Below the pieces are notes generated by a model that saw only the letters and a list, made by a program, of their open reading frames with translations, made no database searches and had not been told where the DNA came from. This document shows positions 12,270 to 32,583 of a DNA stretch of 32,583 nucleotides, one piece after another; position 1 is the stretch's first letter; every line of letters starts with the position of its first letter. The translations under genes were made by a program, and so were the position numbers. Source of the DNA: a virus (lineage: Duplodnaviria; Caudoviricetes); the IMG/VR virus record IMGVR_UViG_3300046786_000480, positions 1 to 32,583 of that record; one strand, given 5' to 3'.

Positions 12270-13680
12270 TCATGCCGCCCATGCGCGGCACGGTGTCGCC
12301 GGATTCCTCGCGCAGGTCATCGTCGGTTTTGTCGGCGCTGACGAGTTGGAGTTTTCGCATCAGTCGGTAGAGTTCGGAGTCTGGCAGCTTGCCGAGCTGG
12401 TTGGCGGACAGTAGCGCGGTCAGCAGTTGGGCATCCACGGACAGTTGCTCTTTGTCCATTTCGATGCTGTATTCCACCTCGCCAGCGCCGCCCATGTACA
12501 TCTGCGCATAAAGCAACGCCTGCTCGTATGCCTCGCTGACGTTTTCGCAGACGAGCGACAGGACGGAATGGTTTGCGGCGACTTCAGCGCGGGCCTGTTC
12601 AGCAGTTTTTGCGACTCCGCCAGGCTGCATCAGTCGAGCGCCGAGGGCAATCATGCGGTTTTCCAGCGCAGTCAGTTCGGCTGGGATGGCTTGGTCAGCC
12701 GGGGCGATGGCGTATTTAAAGTCGCCACCCACCGGCAGCGGCAGCATGGCGCGGCTACCCATGGCCACGTTGTTTTCTGCCAGCCAGTCACGCCAGGATT
12801 CCGACAGGCCGGTGATTGTCGGCTGAGGCTGGCCAGCGTAAAACAGAGCGTTGTACCAGTCAGCGGCCAACTGGTAGTGCTTGGCGTTGAGGCTGGCAAT
12901 GTCCATCAAAGGGGCGTTGTCGATGCTCGTGTCATTGTTCTCGCTGCCGATGAAACAGAACGGAATCTCTGACCACGGCAGGCCGTTCGCCATTGTCGGC
13001 ATAGATTCACCGACGAGGATTAGCTCATCAGGCCGGTTGGTGTCGCGCTGCCACAGCCGGACGACATAGACGCCATCCATCAGCCGTAGTTCGCGCCATT
13101 GATCGACCTCAGTTAGCGAGAAATCACCAGCATTTATTGCGGTCTCGCGGATGACGACGAGCGACAGCCGGTTGATGGCCCCGACTTTCTCCGTCCGCCA
13201 GTTGATGACCGCTTCAGGAGGATACGCGATGACATTGGGTCGGATAGCGCCGGTTTGCATGTCGGCGACGGACAGCGCTCCGGAGGACTCAGGGAAATCG
13301 ACAAACAGTGCGGCCCGTCCGGCTCGCAGCACATCGGCGGCGACAGATTGTGATTGCTGATAGATGCTGATGCCGCTGCCGTCAATGTCGGTGTCCACGT
13401 ATTGCAGGTTGGCGGGCGTGGACAGTTCCGGCCATTTGCCGAACGCCGCACCAATCATAGATTTGCATGTCTGGCCAACGACCGGAAAAAGGCAGGCGCG
13501 TTGCAGGTAGCGGGCATAGATTGCGCCGTTGCTATCATCGCCGAGCATGTTTGGGTCTGGCAGGTACAGGACGCCTTTTGCTTTGACTGCGGCCTGTCCG
13601 TCAATGAAATCCCGGGCCATTTCCCACTGCGGCAGAGCCTCGCGATAGTCGGCGCGCTCAAATGATACGTTATCGGTCAT
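12262..13680 (-). CDS. Portal protein (DUF4055-like)
   Basis: Follows TerL; AVKAKGVLYLP ... YARYLQRA ... IPFCFIGSENND ... PLMDIASLN motifs. Confidence 0.9.
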   Translation of the reverse strand: MTDNVSFERADYREALPQWEMARDFIDGQAAVKAKGVLYLPDPNMLGDDSNGAIYARYLQRACLFPVVGQTCKSMIGAAFGKWPELSTPANLQYVDTDIDGSGISIYQQSQSVAADVLRAGRAALFVDFPESSGALSVADMQTGAIRPNVIAYPPEAVINWRTEKVGAINRLSLVVIRETAINAGDFSLTEVDQWRELRLMDGVYVVRLWQRDTNRPDELILVGESMPTMANGLPWSEIPFCFIGSENNDTSIDNAPLMDIASLNAKHYQLAADWYNALFYAGQPQPTITGLSESWRDWLAENNVAMGSRAMLPLPVGGDFKYAIAPADQAIPAELTALENRMIALGARLMQPGGVAKTAEQARAEVAANHSVLSLVCENVSEAYEQALLYAQMYMGGAGEVEYSIEMDKEQLSVDAQLLTALLSANQLGKLPDSELYRLMRKLQLVSADKTDDDLREESGDTVPRMGGMNG

Positions 13681-15902
13681 CAGAAGTTCATCCGCATTTT
13701 TGGCATTCCGGGGGTATCGCCACTCTTAATCATGCCGCCCAGTGCATAGCGGCAATTGTGCACAAGCACGCCAGACGCAAAAAATTCTTCCGCATCCTCC
13801 ACCATTAAATCATACACTGCATTTCTTGTCCCTGTATCTCGCACGCATAGCACACGATCTTCCGCAATAAACGGTTCTTGCGTACTTGCTGACGGCAAAA
13901 GGTACGGAGCATTCCCCGCACGCCCTTTGCTCGTTATCAACCCCGGAATCCCTTCTGGATGCAGACTTGCACTTGTTTGAGCAAAAGACATCCGAGCTTC
14001 CGATCTTTCTTGCTGTAAAAACACCGCCGCATTGCTGGCAATTTTTTTCAATGCCGGTGAAGTTTTTATAAGCCAGCGCACCAATTTCCTGATGCTTTTT
14101 TCTTCCCTCCGTGGATGCGTGCCACGCTTTTGATAGCGGCCTAATCCTGTCAAGGTGCGCTTCGTGCTCATCTGATCTTCCGCCCCATGCGCAGTGATGC
14201 TGACGGTGGTCTTTTGCGGTAATGCAATCAAGGTTTGAAATGTCGTTGTTTTGCTTGTTTTCATCCTTGTGGTGGATGTGATGGCCGTCAGGAATGGGGC
14301 CAAAATTATCCTCCCAAATTTGCCTATGCAGGTATAGGCATCCTCTGGGCGTAGACCTCTTGAAGTAATCTCGATCAGATTTGTTTTTTGCGGAAGGGTA
14401 TCTGTGCCACCGACATCCGCCGTATTCGATGCATTCTGATTCACGCATGGCAAGCCACTCAAGGAAAGTATCCTGTCATTGTAACCCATGCTATCCATTC
14501 GCACGAATCCTTTTTGCGCGTTAAAAATGCGGTGGTCTTCTGTTGTCCTCAGTGTCCTTCCGCCTTCCGTAACCATCTCAAAAATTCGGGCATGATCTTT
14601 TATTTTTGCTGCCGCCAATACGGTTTTCCATCCGCGCCTTGTCATCACAAGGTCGCCAACAACTACATCCTGAACAGGAATATCGCCCCGCATGGTTGCA
14701 ATCATCTGGCCCTTTTCAATGCAGGCATCCCAGTAGTGGTTATTGGCGTCTTCGATGTCAGGCAGTATATCACCCGTCCGTTTGTCTGTCTTGAAACTGT
14801 ACAGCCTCGCCTCTTTCTGCATTTCCACGCATCGGGCGTGGATGACAATCTGCTTGAACGACTTGATGAATGAAATGCCATCCTCAACACTCCCTGCCCA
14901 TTTCTTCACTGGCTCAATGCGGGGCATGTGCGGGCGCTGTTTGTTCGGGTCTGGACGTTTCAGGTAGCTGATGGACTCAGGGCGGGCAGAGTCTGCGCGG
15001 ACGACATGCGAACAGATGCCAGGGATGCGTTGCTCCAGATAAGCGGCGGTGTCATCCAGTTCCAGCCCGACTCGTCCGGCCTCTCGCTCAATCCACAGCC
15101 GGTTGTCGTGTATCCAGCATTTGACGGCTGCGCTCGGGTCGTTGGCGAATCCGAAATCAAGCCCGTGATATGGGCCTTGCCAGTCTTGCGCCGGGTCGAA
15201 CTCATCGACGCGCCATTTGCCCTTGAATATCTGGCTATCGGACTTGCTGTTGTAGCCGCCCTCCCATACATGCGCGAAGGAATCAGAGTTGTATTTCCGG
15301 TCGTACTCGCGCTCTTTGCGGAGCGTTTCGGGAAGGAACGGGTTATCCGTGCTGTTGACATGCACCAGAATGAATCCATCCGCTTCCGGGCCTGTCTTGG
15401 GCCGGTCGGCAAAAAACTTATCAACAGGGTCATCAGGCTGGTCGGGATTCCAACTGAACCAGATTTCGGATGACTCATTGCGAATGGTCGGGCGCAGCAG
15501 TTCCAGGGAGCGGGCAGACAGGTTTTGCGCTTCTTCCACCCATGCCCGGTCGAATCCTTCCAGCGACTTGATGCTGTCGGCTGTGTGGTCCTGCATCCCC
15601 TGAAAAATGATGATGCCGTTGCCGTTGCGTGAACGGATCTCGGTGAGCGTGACATCGAACAGATGCGAGACGCCAAGCGCCGTGATTTTCTGCTTCAGCA
15701 GCTCGCGAGCGGAAAACTGGAGCGACTTCTGGATTTCGCGGATACATACAGAGCGTTGATGCGGGTTTGCCGCGTGCTCCTCGATGAGCATTTCGGCGAA
15801 CAGATGCGATTTGCCGGAGCCTCGTCCACCTTTTGCGCCCTTGTACCGGGCAGGGTATAGCAGTGGCTCAGCCCATGCGGGCGTCTCAATTACCAGTTCC
15901 AT
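13680..15902 (-). CDS. terL: Terminase large subunit (PBSX-like), intein-containing; 417 aa after splicing
   Basis: Walker A GGRGSGKS, Walker B WVEEA, nuclease GLDFGFANDP; splicing restores the C-terminal NHYWDA|CRYAL motif. Confidence 0.95.
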   Translation of the reverse strand: MELVIETPAWAEPLLYPARYKGAKGGRGSGKSHLFAEMLIEEHAANPHQRSVCIREIQKSLQFSARELLKQKITALGVSHLFDVTLTEIRSRNGNGIIIFQGMQDHTADSIKSLEGFDRAWVEEAQNLSARSLELLRPTIRNESSEIWFSWNPDQPDDPVDKFFADRPKTGPEADGFILVHVNSTDNPFLPETLRKEREYDRKYNSDSFAHVWEGGYNSKSDSQIFKGKWRVDEFDPAQDWQGPYHGLDFGFANDPSAAVKCWIHDNRLWIEREAGRVGLELDDTAAYLEQRIPGICSHVVRADSARPESISYLKRPDPNKQRPHMPRIEPVKKWAGSVEDGISFIKSFKQIVIHARCVEMQKEARLYSFKTDKRTGDILPDIEDANNHYWDACIEKGQMIATMRGDIPVQDVVVGDLVMTRRGWKTVLAAAKIKDHARIFEMVTEGGRTLRTTEDHRIFNAQKGFVRMDSMGYNDRILSLSGLPCVNQNASNTADVGGTDTLPQKTNLIEITSRGLRPEDAYTCIGKFGRIILAPFLTAITSTTRMKTSKTTTFQTLIALPQKTTVSITAHGAEDQMSTKRTLTGLGRYQKRGTHPRREEKSIRKLVRWLIKTSPALKKIASNAAVFLQQERSEARMSFAQTSASLHPEGIPGLITSKGRAGNAPYLLPSASTQEPFIAEDRVLCVRDTGTRNAVYDLMVEDAEEFFASGVLVHNCRYALGGMIKSGDTPGMPKMRMNF
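13755..14723 (-). mobile_element. Intein (323 aa, TerL residues 394-716)
   Basis: Block A CIEKGQMIAT, block B LRTTEDHRIF, block F VYDLMVEDAEEFFASG, block G VLVHN followed by +1 Cys. Confidence 0.95.
13810..14448 (-). CDS. HNH homing endonuclease nested out of frame inside the intein
   Basis: LHRQIWEDNFGPIPDGHHIHHKDENKQNNDISNL...H HNH motif plus two C-terminal Zn modules (CQQC..FCSNKC; CGEC..YCGRSC); -1 frame relative to TerL; GAGTGG 6 nt before the ATG. Confidence 0.9.
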   Translation of the reverse strand: MRESECIEYGGCRWHRYPSAKNKSDRDYFKRSTPRGCLYLHRQIWEDNFGPIPDGHHIHHKDENKQNNDISNLDCITAKDHRQHHCAWGGRSDEHEAHLDRIRPLSKAWHASTEGRKKHQEIGALAYKNFTGIEKNCQQCGGVFTARKIGSSDVFCSNKCKSASRRDSGVDNEQRACGECSVPFAVSKYARTVYCGRSCAMRARYRDKKCSV

Positions 15903-23463: not shown

Positions 23464-24504
23464 CTAGAAAAGTGCGTCTTGCGTGTTCGTGGCGCTCAGG
23501 CAGTGCGGCGACGCCCACACCGTTTCACTGCTGGAATTTTCCTTTGCCTCGTCTGTCATTGCGTACCCCTTCCTGGCCGTCCAGTTATGCAATTTCCAGC
23601 CTAGCTTCAGCAGATCGTCGTGCTCGCCAGCGTGACCACAAATAACGATCCTTAGCTGCTTGTTGTCGCCGTTCGCGGCACACCAATCGCGAACCTGCGC
23701 CGATATTCCCAGCCCCATTCCGCCCGCGCCGTAGTCCATCGCGCCCTTGTCGTATGGTGGGTCAAGAAATATTCCAGTCAGTCCGTGGCGAGTTGTCACG
23801 CTGTCCTTGCATACCCTTTTCCAGTCGCCGCAAGCTACGCGAACATCACGCAGGCGGGCGTACAGCAGGTTAAACCACTCCGCTATATATTCTCCCCGCC
23901 CGGCGCTCAGGTGCGGGAGTTGGCGGTTGATGCCCTGCCCGGCGCTCAGGTGCGGGAGTTTGCGGTTGATGCCCCGCCCGGCGTTACCAAGGTGCGGGAG
24001 TTTGCGGTTGATGCCCCGCCCGGCGCTCAGGTGCGGGAGTTGGCGGCTATCAACTATTTTTTCGCCATCCCACACCCACGGGCCGTTTCCGGAACACCAA
24101 CCAGAGCCAATCCAATTACACGCGCCCCAGCACCACCACCCCGCTATTTTTGCATCGTAAAAATCCGGGTCATGCAGAGCCTCGCGTAACGACTCTGTTT
24201 GACGGACAAGCCAACTGTGCCGGGCCAGCAGATCGGCTTCATTCACCGGCCAGTCAGCATGAAAGGCAACAAGTGACGGGTCTTTTGATATTGCGCGCCA
24301 GAAATTAGCCACAAACCCGTCAAAGTCGTTTATGGTTTCCACTCCGCCACCATCCGGCCTTCCCAGTATCATTGCGGCGCTTCCCGCGAATGGCTCAACA
24401 TAGTTATCCGGCTGGCCCAACAAAGACCAAACCAGCTCGCAGGCGTTTGATTTCCCCCCGAAATAGGGGAATGGCGCGGCAAGTGTTCCAGCGATTGATT
24501 TCAA
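23464..24504 (-). CDS. DNA adenine methyltransferase (Dam/D12-like) with internal peptide repeats
   Basis: APFPYFGGKS, YVEPFAGS, ETINDFDG, FLDPPY; TTG start with GAGG SD. Confidence 0.9.
   Translation of the reverse strand: MKSIAGTLAAPFPYFGGKSNACELVWSLLGQPDNYVEPFAGSAAMILGRPDGGGVETINDFDGFVANFWRAISKDPSLVAFHADWPVNEADLLARHSWLVRQTESLREALHDPDFYDAKIAGWWCWGACNWIGSGWCSGNGPWVWDGEKIVDSRQLPHLSAGRGINRKLPHLGNAGRGINRKLPHLSAGQGINRQLPHLSAGRGEYIAEWFNLLYARLRDVRVACGDWKRVCKDSVTTRHGLTGIFLDPPYDKGAMDYGAGGMGLGISAQVRDWCAANGDNKQLRIVICGHAGEHDDLLKLGWKLHNWTARKGYAMTDEAKENSSSETVWASPHCLSATNTQDALF
23894..24046 (-). repeat. In-frame tandem repeat, ~4 x 39-42 bp (R[QK]LPHLSAG[RQ]GIN)
   Basis: Visible directly in both DNA and protein. 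Confidence 0.95.
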
Positions 24505-24867: not shown

Positions 24868-24934
24868 TGGATGTTGCAGCGGCGGGAATCGAACCCGCGA
24901 CCCATAGGAACTGCCGACTGTTCTACGCTGCAAC
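24868..24934 (-). ncRNA. tRNA-like element lacking the anticodon arm
   Basis: TGCAGCG TA GAAC-AGTCGGCA-GTTC CTATG GGTC GCGGG-TTCGATT-CCCGC CGCTGCA ACATCCA: intact acceptor, D and T arms, only 5 nt between the D arm and the variable loop. Confidence 0.8.
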
Positions 24935-25231
24935 GATCAAGACACTCCCCGACCACTACCGCCACCAGGCTTGTCATAGCTCTAAGTCAATGCCTTGATC
25001 GTTGGCCTGTTGACCGGACAGGCTCCGGGCTACACTGGGCGGGCCTTTGTGTAGTCTCGATGTTGCTCTGTGTTTCGACAGCGTTTCCGCTGGATGTCCC
25101 GACAGATGCAACGATCAGCGCCCTGCACCCGTTCGGGCCGTCTTGTGACGCCATCAGACACAATGCTGATTCCGGGTTTTCACCGGCAAGGCGCTGATCG
25201 TTGGGCTGGTTACGCCAGCAACTCGCATCTG
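24931..25231 (-). ncRNA. Multi-hairpin structured RNA region downstream of cro
   Basis: Two long stems that both begin CAACGATCA (25203-25186/25126-25109; 25004-24989/24946-24931), whose only non-Watson-Crick pairs are G-U on the minus strand; several small hairpins including CAGCG-GAAA-CGCTG and GCTGG-CGTAA-CCAGC. Confidence 0.7.
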
Positions 25232-26168: not shown

Positions 26169-26448
26169 TCTCGAGCGCCACAAGCAAATCAACCGGCGGA
26201 TGCTTGAGCCGTTTCCGCCTGAGTTGGTCGGAGAATATCCCGCAGTTGACGTACTGCGCCAGGTTCACCGCATGGCAAAAATAACAGCGAACTTGCTGGA
26301 TGACGCCCGCATCTACGGCGACATGCCAGACGAACAGGAATATTCGAATTACCTGCAATCCGTCGCATACGATGCGGCAAAACTGATGCTCTCGGCTGCT
26401 GAAGATGCGCTGCGGGCGATGACTGACAAGGGGATGAAAAATGAATAA
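26161..26448 (+). CDS. Hypothetical protein
   Basis: AGGTGA SD; overlaps both neighbours. Confidence 0.65.
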   Translation: MFDLERHKQINRRMLEPFPPELVGEYPAVDVLRQVHRMAKITANLLDDARIYGDMPDEQEYSNYLQSVAYDAAKLMLSAAEDALRAMTDKGMKNE

Positions 26449-27007
26449 ATCGGAATCAATCGCGGCGCTGTCTGCCGCACTCGCCAAGGCTCAAGCTGAA
26501 ATCGAAAACGCCAGCAAGACGGCGAACAACCCGCATTTCAAAAGCAAATACGCTGACCTCGCGGAAGTGCTGAACACTGTGCGCCCGGTCATGTCCCGCC
26601 ATGGCATCGCCATCGTGCAGATGCCGTCGTTTGAATCCGGGCTGGCCAGCGTGGAAACCCTGATGACGCACAGTTCCGGCGAGTGGATCAGCAACATCTG
26701 CTCCGCGCCGGTCAGCAAGCAGGACGCACAAGGCGTCGGCAGCGCCATTACCTACCTGCGCCGGTACTCGCTGGCAGCGTTTGCAGGCATCGCCCAGGAA
26801 GACGACGACGCCAATGCAGCCGTCGGCCAGCGTCAAGCGCCAGCTACCGCCAAGCCCGCAGAAAAGCCAGCTTTGCCTGATGACCGGTTCCGCGCCGCGT
26901 GCGATGCTATCGCGTCCGGAAAAACGTCGGTGCAGATTGTCCGCTCACGCTACGCATTGACGGCTGAACAGGACAACGAGTTGCATGTTTTGGAGTCCGC
27001 ACAATGA
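26441..27007 (+). CDS. erf: ERF-family single-strand annealing protein
   Basis: NPHFKSKYADL ... QGVGSAITYLRRYSLAAFAGIAQEDDDAN. Confidence 0.95.
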   Translation: MNKSESIAALSAALAKAQAEIENASKTANNPHFKSKYADLAEVLNTVRPVMSRHGIAIVQMPSFESGLASVETLMTHSSGEWISNICSAPVSKQDAQGVGSAITYLRRYSLAAFAGIAQEDDDANAAVGQRQAPATAKPAEKPALPDDRFRAACDAIASGKTSVQIVRSRYALTAEQDNELHVLESAQ

Positions 27008-27627
27008 TGATTATCCGCGCATCCGCGCTCGGCGAAGTCATGGCCCCGGCAAAGAAAGCCGGGGAGCTTTCCGCAGGCGCGAAGACGTTTGTTATGAAGG
27101 AGTTCAGGCGCAACCTGTTTGGATTTCGCGAGCAGGTTAGCACAAAGGAAATGGAAAAAGGCTTGTTCTGTGAACAGGCCGCCATTGATCTTTACAATAC
27201 GGTTTTTTTCACGGACTGCACGAAAAACACAAAACGCATAACGAACGATCACATCACCGGCGAGTGCGACATATTCACCGGCGACACCGTGATTGATCTG
27301 AAATGCTCATGGAGCATGACATCATTCCCGGTGTTTCACCGAGACGCGCAAGACTCCGGTTATGAGTGGCAACTCCGCGCCTACATGATGCTCCTGGACT
27401 GCCCCAAGGCTGTGCTGGCGTATTGCATGGTCAGCACCCCGGAACACCTGATTCGCTGGGAAGATCCGAGCATCCACGCGGTTGACCACATCGACCCTGT
27501 TAAACGTGTTACGCGCCTGTTTTACGAACGTGACGCGGAAAAGGAAAAGGCTATCATTGAGCGCGTGCAACTCTGCCGCGACTACTACAACCAACTCGCG
27601 GACGAGTATTCCGCACAAACGAGGTGA
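27004..27627 (+). CDS. Lambda-exonuclease/YqaJ-like nuclease
   Basis: IRASALG ... MEKG...E ... ITGECDI ... DLKCSW ... YEWQLRAYM; adjacent to erf. Confidence 0.8.
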   Translation: MMIIRASALGEVMAPAKKAGELSAGAKTFVMKEFRRNLFGFREQVSTKEMEKGLFCEQAAIDLYNTVFFTDCTKNTKRITNDHITGECDIFTGDTVIDLKCSWSMTSFPVFHRDAQDSGYEWQLRAYMMLLDCPKAVLAYCMVSTPEHLIRWEDPSIHAVDHIDPVKRVTRLFYERDAEKEKAIIERVQLCRDYYNQLADEYSAQTR

Positions 27628-27631
27628 CACC

Positions 27632-28021
27632 ATGTTTATCGAACTAATCCGACTCGGCAAAGACGCTGAGCTGAAACAGGCTGGGCAGACTGAAATCTTG
27701 AGCCTGTATGCCGCCTATGATGTCGGTTTCGGCGACAAGAAGAAAACCCAATGGATTGGCCTGACCATGTTCGGAAAACGCGCCGCACAGGTCGCGCACA
27801 TGATGACGAAAGGCACACTCATTATGGCGACGATGGATGAGGTTCAGGTCGAGGAATACAACGGCAAAAGCTACCTAAAAGCCAAGCTTGTCGAGTTCAA
27901 GTTTGCAGGCGGGAAGAAACAGGACGGCCAGGATTCCGAACCGGCACCGCGCCAGCAACGGGCAGCACCGCAACCGGCCCCGGTCGATGATTTTGACGAC
28001 GGAAGTGACCTCCCGTTCTGA
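27632..28021 (+). CDS. ssb: Single-stranded DNA-binding protein
   Basis: RLGKDAELK N-terminus; acidic DDFDDGSDLPF tail; GAGGTG SD. Confidence 0.9.
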   Translation: MFIELIRLGKDAELKQAGQTEILSLYAAYDVGFGDKKKTQWIGLTMFGKRAAQVAHMMTKGTLIMATMDEVQVEEYNGKSYLKAKLVEFKFAGGKKQDGQDSEPAPRQQRAAPQPAPVDDFDDGSDLPF

Positions 28022-28105: not shown

Positions 28106-29317
28106 ATGACGCAAGAAATCGCAGTAATCGACAACACTGCAATCGCTCAGGCTTTTGCAACTCCATCCGGCATTGACGTGCTGATTCAGCGCATCAAGTC
28201 TGAGGCATCCGCTGAGGTGCCGGACTTGACGACAAAAAAGGGCCGCGACCGTATCGCATCGTTGGCCTACAAGGTCAGCAAGACAAAAACACTGGTAGAC
28301 GACTTTGGTAAAGAACTGGTTGCCGAAGAAAAGAAGCGCCTCGCCCTGATCGACGCCGACCGCAAGAAATGGCGCGACGAGTGCGACAAGTTGCGCGACG
28401 AAATCCGCAAGCCGCTGACGGATTGGGAGCAGGCTGAGTCTGACCGGGTGCAGCAGCACAAAGACGCCATCCAGCAACTGCGCGAACTGTCGGCGCTGGC
28501 CATGGGTACCGACTCCGCAGCCATTTCCAGCCTGATTGCTCAAGCCGAAGCCGTCACGCTTGGCGACCACTGGCAGGAGTTTGCGGCAGAGGCTGGCAAG
28601 GCCAAAGACGAAACGCTGTCAATTCTGCGTCTTGACTTGCAGCGCCGTCAGCAATACGAAGCCGAACAGGCCGAGCTTGCCCGCCTGCGAGCCGAGGCAG
28701 CACGACGCGAACAGGAAGACGCAGACCGGCGCGCCGCTGAAGCAAAGGCTGAGGCCGAACGATTGGCCGCTGAGCGCGAGGCGCAACGCATCCGCGAGGC
28801 TGAAGAACGCGCCCGCCGTGAGGCTGAGGGGGCCGCTGCCAAGGCTCGTGCTGATGCAGAAGCTGCCGCCCGTGCCGAACGTGAAGCCATTGAAGCCAAA
28901 GCCCGTGCCGAACGTGAAGCCGCAGAACGCGCACGCATCGCATCAGAACAGGCAGAGGCCCGCGCCAAGGCAGAAGCCGAAGCCGCGAAGCTGCGCGAAC
29001 AGGATGCCGAGCGCCGTCGCATGGAGTCGGAAGAACGCGCCAAGCGAGAGGCCCAGGAAGCCAAAGAACGCGCCGAACGTGACCGGGTTGCAGCAGTCGA
29101 GGCCGAACGCCAACGCGCCGAACGCCAGCGCATTGCGGAACAGGAAGCGGCGGCGAAGGCTCAGGCAGAACGCGAGGCCAACAAGGAACACATGCGCCGC
29201 ATTAACCGCGAAGCATTGGCCGGGATTATGGCGGTAGGCATCAGCGAGGAACAGGGCAAGGCGCTGATAAAGGCGATTGCGTCCGGCGCTGTTCAGCATG
29301 TGTCGATTTCGTATTAA
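28106..29317 (+). CDS. Long Ala/Glu/Arg-rich coiled-coil phage protein (often labelled TolA-like)
   Basis: PDLTTKKGRDRIASLAYKVSKTKT N-terminus; H..RINREA ... IASGAVQHVSISY C-terminus. Confidence 0.8.
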   Translation: MTQEIAVIDNTAIAQAFATPSGIDVLIQRIKSEASAEVPDLTTKKGRDRIASLAYKVSKTKTLVDDFGKELVAEEKKRLALIDADRKKWRDECDKLRDEIRKPLTDWEQAESDRVQQHKDAIQQLRELSALAMGTDSAAISSLIAQAEAVTLGDHWQEFAAEAGKAKDETLSILRLDLQRRQQYEAEQAELARLRAEAARREQEDADRRAAEAKAEAERLAAEREAQRIREAEERARREAEGAAAKARADAEAAARAEREAIEAKARAEREAAERARIASEQAEARAKAEAEAAKLREQDAERRRMESEERAKREAQEAKERAERDRVAAVEAERQRAERQRIAEQEAAAKAQAEREANKEHMRRINREALAGIMAVGISEEQGKALIKAIASGAVQHVSISY

Positions 29318-29329
29318 GAGGCGAATGTC

Positions 29330-29554
29330 ATGACAAGAAAGCGACCCGAACCGCTCCACCTGACCCCTGTCACCGTCACCGACGACCTTGCCGGATTCCA
29401 CGCCGAATCCGGCTGCGGCAAGCAGGCATTCAGCGCCACATCGGCGCGGGATGCCGTTGAGCAGGTGGCGCGGATACTGGGGATTGACTTCCGTGATGTG
29501 TTTTTCGCGAGACAGGGAAACGCGTCGACTTATGTGATTCGGAGAAGGGTATGA
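29330..29554 (+). CDS. Hypothetical protein
   Basis: GAGG SD; ATGA overlap with the next gene. Confidence 0.6.
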   Translation: MTRKRPEPLHLTPVTVTDDLAGFHAESGCGKQAFSATSARDAVEQVARILGIDFRDVFFARQGNASTYVIRRRV

Positions 29555-30231
29555 CCCGCCGCTTCTGGACCGACTACGAACGCGCCGAACTGTCACGGCG
29601 CTATCCCAATGAATTGACCGCGGTCATCGCCTCCGACATTGGGCGCACCGAACAGCAGGTCTGCTACGCCGCGCACAAAATGGGCCTGAAGAAGTCGCCG
29701 GAGTTTCTTTCCAGCCCTGAATCCACGCAGTTCAAAACCGGACACGCGCCGACGCAGTTCAAGCCGGGTCTGGTGCCGTGGAACAAGGGGATTGCGGGCA
29801 GCACCGGCAACCACCCGAACACGAAGGCCACGCAGTTCAAGCCGGGGCGCAAGCCGGAGGAAGCGCGAAACTATCGCCCCGTCGGCAGCGTTCGCGTGAC
29901 GCGCGACGGCTATCTGGAGCGCAAGATCACGGACGATCAATCCATTGCACCGGCACGGCGCTGGGTGGCTGTCCACCGGCTGGTCTGGGAAGCCGTCAAC
30001 GGTCCGGTGCCGAAGGGTCGGATCGTCGTATTCCGCCCCGGCATGGCCACCACCGACCCCGACCTGATCACGATTGACCGGGTTGAGATGATCACCCGCG
30101 CCGAGAACATGGCGCGAAACACCATCCACGCACGGGATGAGGAATTGCGCGAGCTGTCCATGCTCAAGCGCCGCCTTACCCGCGCCGTCAACAAGAGAAT
30201 CCGTCATGAAGAACAAACACCAAGACCTTAA
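29551..30231 (+). CDS. HNH-related protein with TQFKPG repeats (degenerate catalytic motif)
   Basis: TQFK[TP]G x3; WVAVHRLVWEAVNGPVPKG; ITRAENMARN; the canonical His residues are absent. Confidence 0.75.
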   Translation: MTRRFWTDYERAELSRRYPNELTAVIASDIGRTEQQVCYAAHKMGLKKSPEFLSSPESTQFKTGHAPTQFKPGLVPWNKGIAGSTGNHPNTKATQFKPGRKPEEARNYRPVGSVRVTRDGYLERKITDDQSIAPARRWVAVHRLVWEAVNGPVPKGRIVVFRPGMATTDPDLITIDRVEMITRAENMARNTIHARDEELRELSMLKRRLTRAVNKRIRHEEQTPRP

Positions 30232-30439
30232 TAACCACCTGTTTGCGGCCCTGGAAGCGCTGCACGATCTGGAAAACCCGATGGACGTGGAGCGCGCCAA
30301 AGCCATTGCGATGGTTGGAAACACACTCATCGCCAGCGCCAAGCTGGAAATCGAGATGCGGAGGATGACCGATGGCATCGCGGATTCCGGATTTTTTGTC
30401 AGCTCCAACCAACCGAAGCAGGTGCGCCATGAACATTGA
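30206..30439 (+). CDS. Conserved phage protein (DLNNHLF..LE.L type), usually paired with the HNH-related gene
   Basis: MKNKHQDLNNHLFAALEAL...VERAKAI...IASAKLEI. Confidence 0.75.
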   Translation: MKNKHQDLNNHLFAALEALHDLENPMDVERAKAIAMVGNTLIASAKLEIEMRRMTDGIADSGFFVSSNQPKQVRHEH

Positions 30440-30665
30440 AGAACTGAAGCGGCTGGCGGGGGCGCATCGCCTTGCTGATGTTACGCCCGCCGCCATTCTG
30501 GAGTTGATCCGGCAGCGCGACGAACTGATGGAGGCGCTGAAAGAAGCCCGCGAACTTGTCGAGGATTGGGGCGCATATGCACCGGCCTACATGCAGGAAA
30601 AGCATGACCTTGAGGGTGATATGAACAAACTGGATGCGGCCATCGCCCGCGCGGAGGCACCATGA
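30429..30665 (+). CDS. Ead/Ea22-like hypothetical protein
   Basis: MNIEELKRLA...PAAILELIRQRDELMEALK. Confidence 0.6.
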   Translation: MNIEELKRLAGAHRLADVTPAAILELIRQRDELMEALKEARELVEDWGAYAPAYMQEKHDLEGDMNKLDAAIARAEAP

Positions 30666-31024
30666 CCATCTCCATCCACCTCCACGACATCCGCGACCAC
30701 GACCGCATCCAGAAATCATTTGAAACGTGGGCGCAGCAACAGGGCTTCAAGGACTTGACGCAATCCATGGGCCGCTACAACCGCGCCGTTGTGCGCTGGA
30801 TGTGGGAGGCGTGGCAGGAACAGGCCGAGAAGATAGATGACATGGCGGCAGCACTTGAGCGCGCCCACAACCGGCAGACAGGGCTGCTGAAGCAGTGCCA
30901 CGACATTGATGCACGACGAGCCGCAGCAGTCGCCCAGGCTGCATCGTTGGCCGCTGAAGTTGAGCGGCTGAACCTGATAATTTCGCGTCTGTCCGTTGAG
31001 GGGCAGGACGCGGTGGAGATGTGA
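30662..31024 (+). CDS. Hypothetical protein with coiled coil
   Basis: GGAGG SD, ATGA overlap; FETWA...WMWEAWQ motif common in phage early genes. Confidence 0.65.
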   Translation: MTISIHLHDIRDHDRIQKSFETWAQQQGFKDLTQSMGRYNRAVVRWMWEAWQEQAEKIDDMAAALERAHNRQTGLLKQCHDIDARRAAAVAQAASLAAEVERLNLIISRLSVEGQDAVEM

Positions 31025-31039
31025 GATGAGGATGGAAAA

Positions 31040-31261
31040 ATGAAAATCGACGGGTATGACGCGCTCGACAGCGCATGCAAGAAACGGTGGTGCTGGAGCC
31101 CCGGCAACTACCAGCACCGTGGCGCCTGCGGATCGGGCGGCAGCCGTAACACCTGCATGACGACGCGCTGCTGTCTGGAACGGGCATATCGCGGCTGCCC
31201 CGATCCTGTGCCGGAACCTGGGGCGCCGGCACCGTGGGGTGAAGTGACGCCCAACGCATAG
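31040..31261 (+). CDS. Small Cys-rich protein ending inside an attC site
   Basis: GAGGATGGA SD; 7 Cys; last codons CCC AAC GCA TAG lie within the attC. Confidence 0.65.
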   Translation: MKIDGYDALDSACKKRWCWSPGNYQHRGACGSGGSRNTCMTTRCCLERAYRGCPDPVPEPGAPAPWGEVTPNA

Positions 31262-31311
31262 CTAAGGGGCGCGCGGCTTTTCGCGCGTCCCGCTTGAGCG
31301 CCGGGTTAGGT
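31249..31311 (-). mobile_element. Integron-type attC site (63 bp)
   Basis: Minus strand: ACCTAAC-CCGGC-GCT[C]AAG-[C]GGG[A]CGCGCG-AAAAGC-CGCGCG-CCC-CTTAGC-TATGC-GTTGGGC, i.e. R'' RYYYAAC, L'' with extra base, stem-loop, L', R' GTTRRRY. Confidence 0.85.
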
Positions 31312-31353
31312 TCCGTGGTTGATAACGAAACACAAAATAAATGTAAAAAGTTC

Positions 31354-31382
31354 TTTACTATCGTTTGATTGCGCACTACAAT
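31354..31382 (+). promoter_or_regulatory. Cassette-internal promoter TTTACT-N17-TACAAT
   Basis: 17 bp spacer, AT-rich UP-like tract, followed by a strong AAGGAG SD. Confidence 0.7.
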
Positions 31383-31417
31383 AACTACATCAACTCAACA
31401 AACGAAGGAGAAACAAA

Positions 31418-31588
31418 ATGTTCTACACACAAGCAACCCTCGGAAAAATTAACAAAGACGTAGTGACCTACTTTGAAACAGAAGCAGCAGCAAAGCGTGC
31501 GGCAAAGCGCCAAGCAAAAGACAAGGATTACACGGCGGTCTGGTACGGCAACCCGAACCGGATGGAAGCAAGGGTTCAAGTTAAATGA
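31418..31588 (+). CDS. 56 aa protein MFYTQATLGKINKDVVTYFETEAAAKRAAKRQAKDKDYTAVWYGNPNRMEARVQVK (not in ORF track)
   Basis: AAGGAG SD, own promoter, ATGA coupling to the next ORF. Confidence 0.75.
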   Translation: MFYTQATLGKINKDVVTYFETEAAAKRAAKRQAKDKDYTAVWYGNPNRMEARVQVK

Positions 31589-31755
31589 CAACCAGAGGCG
31601 GCCCAGGAAGGGGCCAAGGCCGCAAGCCCGTGAAGCAGGGAGAGGAAACGGTAACGATCTCCCTGCGCATGACGACGGCGCAGCGGGAAAAGCTGGCACG
31701 GCTGGGCGGTGCCGAATGGGTGCGGCAGAAGATTGACCGCGCAAAAGAAACATAA
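31585..31755 (+). CDS. 56 aa AT-hook/ribbon-helix-helix-like DNA-binding protein MTTRGGPGRGQGRKP...TISLRMTTAQREKLARLGGAEWVRQKIDRAKET (not in ORF track)
   Basis: RGG.GRGQGRKP hook followed by a beta-helix-helix pattern; its TAA stop is part of the attC core. Confidence 0.75.
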   Translation: MTTRGGPGRGQGRKPVKQGEETVTISLRMTTAQREKLARLGGAEWVRQKIDRAKET

Positions 31756-31808
31756 CGCTTGAGGTATGCGGCGTGCGCAGCACGTCCGACATGAGTGAAA
31801 TGTTATGC
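31750..31808 (-). mobile_element. Integron-type attC site (59 bp)
   Basis: Minus strand: GCATAAC-ATTTC-ACT[C]ATG-[T]CGG[A]CGTGC-TGC-GCACG-CCG-CATACC-TCAAGC-GTTATGT. Confidence 0.8.
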
Positions 31809-31823
31809 AGCAAGGATGGATTT

Positions 31824-32066
31824 ATGAACAGAAAAGGCAGCGGAAACGAAACGCGATTCGACGGCGTGGCTACAAAAATTGATGCCGCCAGAAATTCAGC
31901 GCCGGGTATCGGTGTGCGATTGAAGTACACCCGCTGGTGCGAGAGGTGCGGGAAGGACAAGCCAGCGGCTGGTGCAAAGCAACTGATGCCGGGTGTTTTT
32001 CGGTGCGCTGACTGCTGCGCTGGTTTGCGGCATAACGCAATGTATACCGCAAAACCTGCAATATAG
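31824..32066 (+). CDS. Small Zn-finger protein (CERC...CADC) carried on a cassette
   Basis: AAGGA/TGGA SD, ATG 31824; reads through the recombination core (CAT AAC GCA). Confidence 0.65.
   Translation: MNRKGSGNETRFDGVATKIDAARNSAPGIGVRLKYTRWCERCGKDKPAAGAKQLMPGVFRCADCCAGLRHNAMYTAKPAI
32030..32047 (-). mobile_element. Terminal attI/attG-like half site
   Basis: Minus strand GTATAC-ATTGC-GTTATGC; the core GTTATGC exactly complements the R'' GCATAAC of the adjacent attC; no partner arm seen. Confidence 0.55.
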
Positions 32067-32154
32067 CGTGGCAACTTACACCACAAAAACAACCTCTACC
32101 GCACGCCAGCCGTGCGCGAGTAGCTCTGATAAAAATAGCGGCAAAGGACGCAAA

Positions 32155-32427
32155 ATGAATGAACGAAAAAAGCTGATTGAACGACTGCGCTTGGACTACA
32201 CCGCATCAACTATGGCCCTGACACTGATGCATCAAGCCGCTGACATGCTCGAAGCTGATGTGGAGCCAAAGTGCTCAGACCAAGCACCCCAACTACAGCG
32301 GCCAAGGCTGACTGATGATGAGATTTTCTCGATGTGCAGCGGGTACTCAGGAAACTACACAAGCGGAAGATTTGACTATTACAAGTTTGCCCGTGCAGTT
32401 GAGCGGAAAGTGAGGGGTGAAGCATGA
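32155..32427 (+). CDS. Hypothetical phage protein
   Basis: AAGGA SD; KLIERLR...QAADMLEA and LTDDEI...FARAVER motifs. Confidence 0.7.
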   Translation: MNERKKLIERLRLDYTASTMALTLMHQAADMLEADVEPKCSDQAPQLQRPRLTDDEIFSMCSGYSGNYTSGRFDYYKFARAVERKVRGEA

Positions 32428-32583
32428 GCAAGTACACACCAGGGCCTTGGAGGGTTATCCCAGAGCATGAAATGGTGATTGGCGCTGGAGATGCCACTAT
32501 CGTGTATGAGTTGAACACGAACGAAGATGACGCACGCCTAATAGCCGCAGCGCCTGAGTTGCTTGAGGCGTTGAAGGAATGCG
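32424..32583 (+). CDS. Hypothetical phage protein, truncated by window end
   Basis: MSKYTPGPW...DARLIAAAPELLEALK, a common phage early gene family. Confidence 0.75.
   Translation, partial: MSKYTPGPWRVIPEHEMVIGAGDATIVYELNTNEDDARLIAAAPELLEALKEC

What the first reader, a model, noticed from the sequence alone, without database searches (positions are those of the whole stretch)
31249..32047. Integron-like gene cassette array in a phage early region, with no integrase in view
Seen: two attC-type sites on the minus strand (63 bp at 31249-31311, 59 bp at 31750-31808) with R''/L''/L'/R' boxes and the expected extrahelical bases, plus a lone core GTTATGC at 32030-32036. The cores follow the cassette rule. 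Cassette 1 (31756-32035) starts G|TTATGC and ends GCATAAC (7/7 complementary). Cassette 2 (31255-31755) starts G|TTATGT and ends ACCTAAC (6/7, better than the 5/7 match to that attC's own R', GTTGGGC). Established: this is the footprint left by IntI-mediated cassette insertion. Inference: the phage gains or shuffles early genes through attC recombination, using a host integron integrase in trans or one encoded outside the window. The reconstructed empty site is GACGCCCAA|CGCAATGTATAC.
Basis: partly seen in the sequence, partly recalled or inferred. Interest (0 to 1): 0.92.

Follow-up and report, generated by a model that had tools for sequence, protein, structure and literature searches.

The report
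Backwards integron array in a phage
This phage carries two real integron gene cassettes and a bacterial-type docking site but no integrase in the sequenced part, its cassette genes face the opposite way from those in bacteria, and the same cassettes sit beside other neighbours in other samples, so the phage likely swaps early genes with a borrowed host enzyme.

Summary
Observation confirmed and extended. A covariance model built only from 46 bacterial attC sites hits this 32.6-kb phage at exactly 31249-31311 and 31750-31808, minus strand (37 and 35 bits; next 8.7). Site 1 is 87% identical to a class 1 integron attC. The 'lone core' is the R box of a genuine Comamonadaceae-type attI: the motif occurs in 30 of 301 family genomes and lies about 140 nt from an intI start in 14 of 31 loci. 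No integrase was found in the contig (78% complete) or in near-complete relatives. Cassette 1 recurs letter for letter in four other studies, ending at the predicted junctions, in three of them beside other neighbours. Likely mechanism: host IntI in trans; phage transcription selects inverted cassettes. No recombination, circle or expression was shown. Phage attC clusters are published (Qi 2023); I found no paper on the inverted, attI-anchored form. This scan noted it before on other genomes. New variant; interest 0.68.

The parts
31021..31254 (-). Remnant of cassette 3 (oldest); its attC and first ORF are missing here
   Evidence: In L024 and L026 the same DNA is preceded by an attC (L024 3763-3830, L026 3773-3830) whose R'' box is fully complementary to this cassette's core; homology to the window starts at 31021 and ends at 31256-31257 in L024, L025, L027
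31040..31261 (+). 73-aa Cys-rich ORF of cassette 3; its stop codon lies inside attC site 1
   Evidence: no PHROG or Pfam match; 95-97% identical copies in 4 viral loci
31249..31311 (-). attC site 1 (top strand = minus); predicted crossover 31254|31255
   Evidence: covariance model 37.4 bits; 87% identical over 63 nt to the attC behind blaOXA-198 in a class 1 integron, same polarity
31255..31755 (-). Cassette 2 (501 nt): promoter-like site plus two small inverted ORFs
   Evidence: 13 of 21 distinct viral loci with the second ORF have an attC at one or both ends, with differing neighbours; contig pieces end at 31756-31758 in 7 of 8 runs laid
31354..31382 (+). Sigma-70 promoter-like site inside cassette 2
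   Evidence: 9 of 12 consensus matches; 1 found against 1.3 expected by chance, but the spot is conserved among relatives; function untested
31418..31588 (+). 56-aa ORF, variable slot of cassette 2 (other genes fill it in relatives)
   Evidence: strong RBS; no family match; replaced in relatives and in contigs that skip 31420-31595
31585..31755 (+). 56-aa ORF, probably a ribbon-helix-helix DNA-binding protein; stop codon in the core of site 2
   Evidence: no Pfam match; nearest named Atlas clusters are RHH/CopG-like at 0.87-0.90, a lead only; 23 viral loci
31750..31808 (-). attC site 2 (top strand = minus), L box with two non-standard pairs; predicted crossover 31755|31756
   Evidence: covariance model 35.2 bits; 82.5% identical to the first attC of a complete Diaphorobacter integron
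31756..32035 (-). Cassette 1 (280 nt), next to attI
   Evidence: 0-mismatch contig pieces spanning 31752/3-32038/9 in runs X3, X4, X8, X11 (4 studies), with other neighbours in X3, X4, X11
31824..32066 (+). 80-aa zinc-finger ORF of cassette 1, inverted; it reads through the junction and takes its last residues and stop codon from attI
   Evidence: phrog_54 DksA-like zinc finger, E 2e-6; PF01258 below cut-off; same reading frame through attI in 5 of 5 phage loci
32030..32070 (-). attI of Comamonadaceae/Burkholderiaceae type: R box 32030-32036, 5-nt spacer, L box 32042-32048; predicted crossover 32035|32036; no intI follows
   Evidence: motif in 30 of 301 family genomes, 0 for the reversed control; intI starts 138-142 nt away in 14 of 31 loci; annotated integron integrase 140 nt away in NZ_CP049911; 20 viral contigs carry the motif
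32094..32139 (+). Copy of a dispersed host chromosomal repeat, standing where the intI promoter region lies in bacteria
   Evidence: 1 match in the window, 0 in 100 shuffles; 84 copies in G128 and 1-5 in four other genomes, 0 for controls
26441..28021 (+). Context: Erf-like annealing protein, exonuclease, SSB at the head of the early operon that runs into the array
   Evidence: PHROG matches

Best explanation
This is an integron cassette array (one attI, two attC sites, two whole cassettes and a remnant) in a phage early operon, with genes facing opposite to the bacterial norm and no integrase in the sequenced part, and it is likely loaded and reshuffled by a host integron integrase acting in trans. 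Shown: the sites, their polarity, the host-type attI, the inverted genes, and exchange of neighbours at the AA|C junctions among phages. Inferred: a phage ancestor took up a Comamonadaceae attI without intI; in a host that has IntI (probably SOS-induced) circular cassettes insert at 32035|32036, the newest next to attI, older ones pushed towards the early promoter, where their attC sites decay (cassette 3). IntI fixes cassette polarity, and attI points against the phage early transcript, so only cassettes whose genes are antisense to attC would be read; that would select a phage-adapted pool of inverted cassettes.
For: Bacterial-only covariance model hits both sites and nothing else. Polarity confirmed by two named integrons. 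attI identity. Same attI preceded by a different cassette in each of 4 viral contigs; 13 of 20 viral contigs with the attI motif have attC sites on the expected side and strand, 1 of 20 has intI. Cassette rule in phage arrays: start core fits its own R'' better than the same site's R' in 49 of 63 intervals, equal 8, worse 6. In 35 pairs sharing only the R'-side neighbour, attC bodies are at background identity (0.54 against 0.53); two pairs sharing the R''-side cassette keep the attC at 0.98-1.0 and diverge within the R' box. Cassette 1 identical in four studies, ends at the junctions. Inversion: 52 anti, 2 same, 9 unclear of 63 phage intervals against 11 anti, 37 same, 60 unclear of 108 bacterial; PHROG matches on the antisense strand 16 of 59, on the sense strand 0 of 54. 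No PF00589 in G000 or in 4 of 5 relatives at least 90% complete; the fifth has one match at E 3e-14 and no attC at its RHH gene; no IntI over cut-off in 5 more, two of them at least 90% complete. IntI over cut-off in 80 of 201 family genomes. IntI1 recombines 5 of 6 phage attC sites tested (PMC9892861).
Against: No recombination, excised circle or empty site was seen (no such joint in 8 runs, contigs only). Site 2 has a damaged L box and failed the strict scan. The contig is 78% complete, so an integrase may lie in the missing part. Mean attC identity among the 24 pairs sharing the R''-side cassette is only 0.61, and one R'-side pair shares its attC at 0.82. 8 of 21 viral loci and 15 of 15 bacterial loci with the RHH-like gene have no flanking attC. 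The 63 phage intervals are not independent: loci were found through this window's genes. The length-based strand caller miscalled the window's own cassette 2. Expression and the host are not shown.
Confidence: 0.72

Rival explanations
1. Fossil array: cassettes were assembled by IntI long ago and now move among phages only by homologous recombination (Erf-like protein, exonuclease) or en bloc; the sites here are no longer used.
For: Erf, exonuclease and SSB are encoded 3-5 kb upstream. Decay is visible: cassette 3 lost its attC, L005/L026 lost site 1, site 2 has L-box mismatches. The inner slot of cassette 2 is swapped without any att site.
Against: Cassette 1 is letter-identical in four studies and changes both neighbours at the junctions; the exchanged neighbours share only the core, attC bodies at background identity; the attI boxes are conserved in 20 viral contigs.
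Confidence: 0.15
2. The recombinase is phage-encoded: an IntI or other enzyme in the missing fifth of this genome or in a co-infecting phage works the array.
For: Contig 78% complete. Earlier scan notes describe phage-borne intI and a small recombinase in other phage groups (unchecked AI notes, not support).
Against: No intI follows the attI in the window or in 19 of 20 viral contigs; near-complete relatives with arrays have no PF00589 or IntI match; the attI is of a bacterial chromosomal family. A cassette ORF labelled 'integrase' by PHROGs has no Pfam match and no homolog in the window.
Confidence: 0.1
3. A captured piece of a host integron, with bacterial cargo, carried passively by one phage.
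For: attI and the neighbouring repeat are host-type; one bacterial locus (L037) has attI plus repeat without intI; both attC sites resemble bacterial ones.
Against: Genes are inverted relative to bacterial arrays; the cassette proteins have nearest clusters mostly in viruses; the RHH-like gene was not found beside an attC in 301 family genomes; many phages hold such arrays with different cargo.
Confidence: 0.03

Closest known systems
CALINs in phage genomes (Qi et al. 2023, PMC9892861; main text read, supplement searched)
   Same: At least two attC sites in a phage, no intI nearby; phage attC sites shown there to recombine with IntI1; one prophage CALIN (Shewanella M16-3) has an attI.
   Different: Here a host-type attI anchors the array in the early operon of a lambdoid-type phage, genes are antisense to attC, and cassettes are shown exchanged among phages. 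In TJE1, their example, the 2 attC sites my model found lie on the same strand as the annotated genes. The paper does not discuss gene inversion in the parts read; its figures were not visible.
Sedentary chromosomal integrons of Comamonadaceae/Burkholderiaceae (e.g. Diaphorobacter sp. HDW4A, NZ_CP049911)
   Same: Same attI family, similar attC sites, same order attI - cassette - attC, same core rule.
   Different: No intI, no LexA-type box right of attI, a host repeat and a phage gene in their place; genes inverted; ORFs often borrow their stop codon from the next element (25 of 52).
SALINs and attG secondary-site insertion (Loot et al., 10.1101/2022.09.11.507474; passages read)
   Same: Cassettes standing away from any intI, inserted by IntI in trans.
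   Different: The target here is a conserved attI reused in many phages, not an arbitrary genomic site.
Class 1 integron cassettes (blaOXA-198 cassette, NZ_MG958650)
   Same: attC site 1 is 87% identical to that cassette's attC.
   Different: No resistance gene, no intI1, no attI1; cargo is small phage-type genes in reverse.

Membership tests
attC site | R''/R' boxes with AAC/GTT and L''/L' inverted repeats forming a hairpin | tested here: met
   site 2 has two non-standard L-box pairs
attC site | Extrahelical G in L'' on the bottom strand, setting polarity (PMC2727003, passages read) | tested here: met
   G31296 and G31793 on the + strand; polarity agrees with two named integrons
attC site | Covariance-model match | tested here: met
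   own model from 46 bacterial sites, 37.4 and 35.2 bits; the IntegronFinder model itself was not available
attC site | Recombined by IntI as folded bottom strand | not testable with these tools
   bench assay needed
Gene cassette | Unit from G|TT core to own attC, moving intact between arrays | tested here: met
Gene cassette (typical) | ORF on the attC top strand, readable from Pc | tested here: not met
   all window cassette ORFs are antisense; 52 against 2 of 63 in phage arrays
attI site | R box, 5-nt spacer, L box, lying upstream of a divergent intI in bacterial integrons and at the head of the array | tested here: met
   homologous motif next to intI in 14 of 31 bacterial loci; different first cassettes in 4 phages
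Complete integron | intI gene beside attI | tested here: not met
   contig extends 550 nt beyond attI without intI; 22% of the genome unseen
Complete integron | Pc promoter reading into the array | tested here: inconclusive
   consensus scan found no minus-strand promoter in 29000-32583; weak test
CALIN (PMC4889954, passages read) | Two or more attC sites, no neighbouring intI | tested here: met
attG/SALIN insertion | Target is a genomic site unlike attI and attC | tested here: not met
   target is an attI homolog

The most novel reading that the evidence does not exclude
Betaproteobacterial phages run their own integron economy: a captured host attI, set against the early transcript, lets them use the host's integrase to acquire and reorder accessory early genes (DNA methyltransferases, nucleases, small regulators) from a phage-specific pool of inverted cassettes that stay silent in bacterial integrons, so part of phage genome mosaicism is site-specific and programmed.
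Probability: 0.55. Interest if true: 0.85.

Novelty: new variant of a known kind. Interest (0 to 1): 0.68.

Why it matters
Phage mosaicism is usually put down to homologous or illegitimate recombination (own knowledge). Here gene-sized modules change neighbours at one defined base, next to a host-type attI, in many phages of wastewater and freshwater samples. If host IntI does this, integrons, now seen as anti-phage libraries (search listings), are also used by phages, and cassettes can pass between phage and chromosomal arrays. Inverted cassettes built from phage-type genes also give a handle on the open question of how cassettes arise (stated as unknown in PMC4889954). The array is small and its three sites can be tested in a standard assay.

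Tried and rejected
Rfam scan of the window: nothing at the sites. Folding energy as a test: z-scores too weak to decide. Strict rule-based scanner: finds site 1, misses site 2. First IntI tblastn used the wrong ORF and was repeated. The top 30 IntI loci of the family carry other attI variants, at most 15 of 22 identical; the matching family came from a pattern search. Two of six exact genome matches (L038, L040) lie in unrelated coding DNA and were treated as chance; several of the 31 loci (L115, L123, L128, L131) look the same. Annotated phages: no match to 31000-32200. Cassette 1 protein: only its own cluster and one viral hit that is the attI read-through. No excision circle or empty site in 8 runs; contigs cannot show absence. 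RNA run X15 covers cassette 2 but contigs give neither strand nor level, so expression is not shown. The PHROG 'integrase' label on an L051 cassette ORF was rejected. Literature: 7 searches found Qi 2023 as the only study of phage attC arrays; PMC13366799 only cites it; subscription journals are not covered, bioRxiv supplements are closed and figures were not visible. No structure or complex prediction was run.

Full report
Setting. The window is a whole virus record of 32,583 nt, linear, 78% complete. PHROG matches show a tailed phage of lambdoid layout: head, tail, terminase, lysis and replication genes on the minus strand; Erf-like annealing protein, exonuclease, SSB, HNH nuclease and small genes on the plus strand from about 26 kb on. 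The finding lies at the far end of that plus-strand early operon. A repressor or integrase was not identified, so lysogeny is not shown. Runs holding the stretch come mostly from freshwater, wastewater and activated sludge.

The observation. The two sites, the core, the cassette lengths (280 and 501 nt) and the complementarity counts are as written. To test them without circularity I collected attC sites from chromosomal integrons of Burkholderiaceae, aligned 46 of them (91.6% of cells paired, 9 of 14 pairs with compensatory change) and built a covariance model. It finds 31249-31311 and 31750-31808 full length on the minus strand at 37.4 and 35.2 bits; the other two matches score under 9 bits. 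Independently, site 1 is 87% identical to the attC behind blaOXA-198 in a class 1 integron and site 2 is 82.5% identical to the first attC of a Diaphorobacter integron, and in both the cassette genes lie on the strand that corresponds to the window's minus strand. So minus is the top strand. Weak points: site 2 has two non-standard pairs in its L box and failed my strict scanner, and folding energy alone is unremarkable.

The lone core is an attI. The 19 nt starting at the core match 6 places in the genome collection; in two (L036, L041) the start of a broken intI follows within 64-139 nt, two look like chance. With two mismatches the motif occurs in 30 of 301 genomes of that family and never as the reversed control; in 14 of 31 loci an intI begins 138-142 nt away, pointing outwards, three or more of them full length. 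In the named Diaphorobacter record the annotated integron integrase starts 140 nt from the homologous site. In the phage the intI side is replaced by a copy of a dispersed host repeat (32094-32139; 84 copies in G128) and the next phage gene. The motif is in 20 viral contigs (four are the contigs, and L170 and L172 look like one phage); 13 have attC sites on the expected side and strand, 12 have the repeat by a loose pattern, 1 has intI. The host is therefore likely a Comamonadaceae-type betaproteobacterium (inference).

The cassettes move. The exact attI is preceded by a different cassette in each of four other viral contigs. The 73-aa gene is followed by other DNA from 31256-31257 on in three of four relatives; the fourth (L026) keeps cassette 2 but has lost site 1. 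The second gene of cassette 2 is flanked by an attC in 13 of 21 distinct viral loci, with changing neighbours. In assembled contigs of eight runs, cassette 1 appears without a mismatch from 31752/3 to 32038/9 in four runs of four studies, with another attC-like sequence after it in X3 and X4 and other DNA before it in X4 and X11; pieces of cassette 2 end at 31756-31758 in seven runs. Across 63 intervals between neighbouring phage attC sites the start core fits the cassette's own R'' better than that site's R' in 49, equally in 8, worse in 6. Where two arrays share only the R'-side neighbour (35 pairs) the attC bodies are at background identity; two pairs sharing the R''-side cassette keep the attC body and diverge inside R'. 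The mean for all 24 such pairs is only 0.61, partly through loop insertions, and one R'-side pair shares its attC. No circle and no empty site was seen; contigs drop rare forms.

Correction of the empty site. In L024 and L026 the 73-aa gene is the second ORF of a cassette headed by its own attC, whose R'' box is fully complementary to the core at 31249-31255; the window has lost that attC and the first ORF.

The genes are inverted. All ORFs in the window's cassettes are on the plus strand, the attC bottom strand. Using ribosome-binding sites, 52 of 63 phage intervals code antisense, 2 sense, 9 unclear; of 108 bacterial intervals 37 sense, 11 antisense, 60 unclear; by ORF length 43/8/12 and 9/79/20 (which miscalled the window's cassette 2). 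PHROG matches fall on 16 of 59 antisense ORFs (methyltransferases, Mom-like protein, endonuclease, RNA ligase, unknowns) and on 0 of 54 sense ORFs; 10 of 106 bacterial cassette ORFs match. The sample is biased towards relatives of this window and repeats some cassettes. In 25 of 52 inverted cassettes the stop codon lies past the crossover, and the gene next to attI reads into it in the same frame in 5 of 5 phages. The published TJE1 cluster is canonical at the 2 sites my model found.

No integrase. PF00589 finds nothing in G000; a family IntI gives no tblastn hit under E 0.4. Of 18 related records, 2 have a tyrosine recombinase, both at loci whose RHH-like gene lacks attC; 4 of 5 near-complete records have none. 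Five further records, four of them with the exact attI, have no IntI over cut-off. In contrast 80 of 201 family genomes have IntI, and 11 of 30 loci show a LexA-type box upstream (consensus recalled).

Mechanism. Shown: anatomy, polarity, attI identity, inversion, exchange at the junctions. Established: IntI recombines folded attC bottom strands at R', the extrahelical G setting the strand (PMC2727003, passages); IntI1 accepts phage attC sites (PMC9892861, main text). Inferred: host IntI acts in trans, plausibly under SOS; new cassettes enter at 32035|32036; because attI faces the early transcript, only antisense cassettes are read, which would select an inverted pool; older cassettes lose their attC and become fixed phage genes. 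I give this 0.72, a fossil array moved by homologous recombination 0.15, a phage-encoded enzyme 0.10, passive capture 0.03.

Novelty. By definition this is a CALIN with an orphan attI (PMC4889954, passages); it fails membership as a complete integron and as an attG insertion (10.1101/2022.09.11.507474, passages). Phage CALINs are in print. Seven searches gave no paper on inverted, attI-anchored arrays in phage early operons, within the library's limits. Earlier notes of this scan report the same kind of array on other genomes (none on look-alike DNA); they are unchecked and not counted as support. Verdict: real, new variant of a known kind, interest 0.68.

Noticed in passing
window 32094-32139: Copy of a dispersed Comamonadaceae-type chromosomal repeat (84 copies in G128) right of attI; the attI-plus-repeat block recurs in 12 of 20 viral contigs and in bacterial locus L037. 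I did not identify the repeat family.
   Followed up: partly
window 31420-31595: The first ORF of cassette 2 is a variable slot: relatives keep promoter, RBS and the RHH-like gene but carry unrelated small genes between, exchanged without att sites.
   Followed up: partly
window 24872-24965, minus strand: tRNA- or tmRNA-like sequence ending in CCA-like letters (Rfam tmRNA, E 2e-4, below gathering score; ARAGORN found nothing); could be a degenerate tRNA or an attP-like piece.
   Followed up: no
window 13680-15902, minus strand: Terminase large subunit of 740 aa matches profiles in separate pieces (18-262, 265-393), longer than usual; an intein or inserted domain is possible.
   Followed up: no
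window 23464-24504, minus strand: 346-aa ORF with only an N-terminal D12 adenine methyltransferase match.
   Followed up: no
L005/L026 4219-4240 and after the RHH-like gene; L001, L002, L004 after the same gene: Short non-attC sites starting with AAC stand where attC or attI is expected; some look like other attI types or collapsed attC sites, one with a small hairpin.
   Followed up: no
L030 (G324) right of attI: attI lies between an AlpA-like small gene side and a convergent 379-aa ORF that looks like a phage integrase (recalled motifs, not scanned), that is near the likely attP region.
   Followed up: no
L168 2571-2923: attC sites of the same polarity also lie beyond attI, suggesting a second array on the other side.
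   Followed up: no
L024 4217 onwards: The 73-aa gene is fused at its AAC to an HNH-like sequence of a higher-GC phage with no attC, a possible secondary-site insertion or chimeric contig.
   Followed up: no
L017 2368-2469 and L073 3237-3338: Nearly the same 102-nt attC stands in a phage locus and beside a bacterial intI, hinting at traffic of a cassette between the two pools.
   Followed up: no
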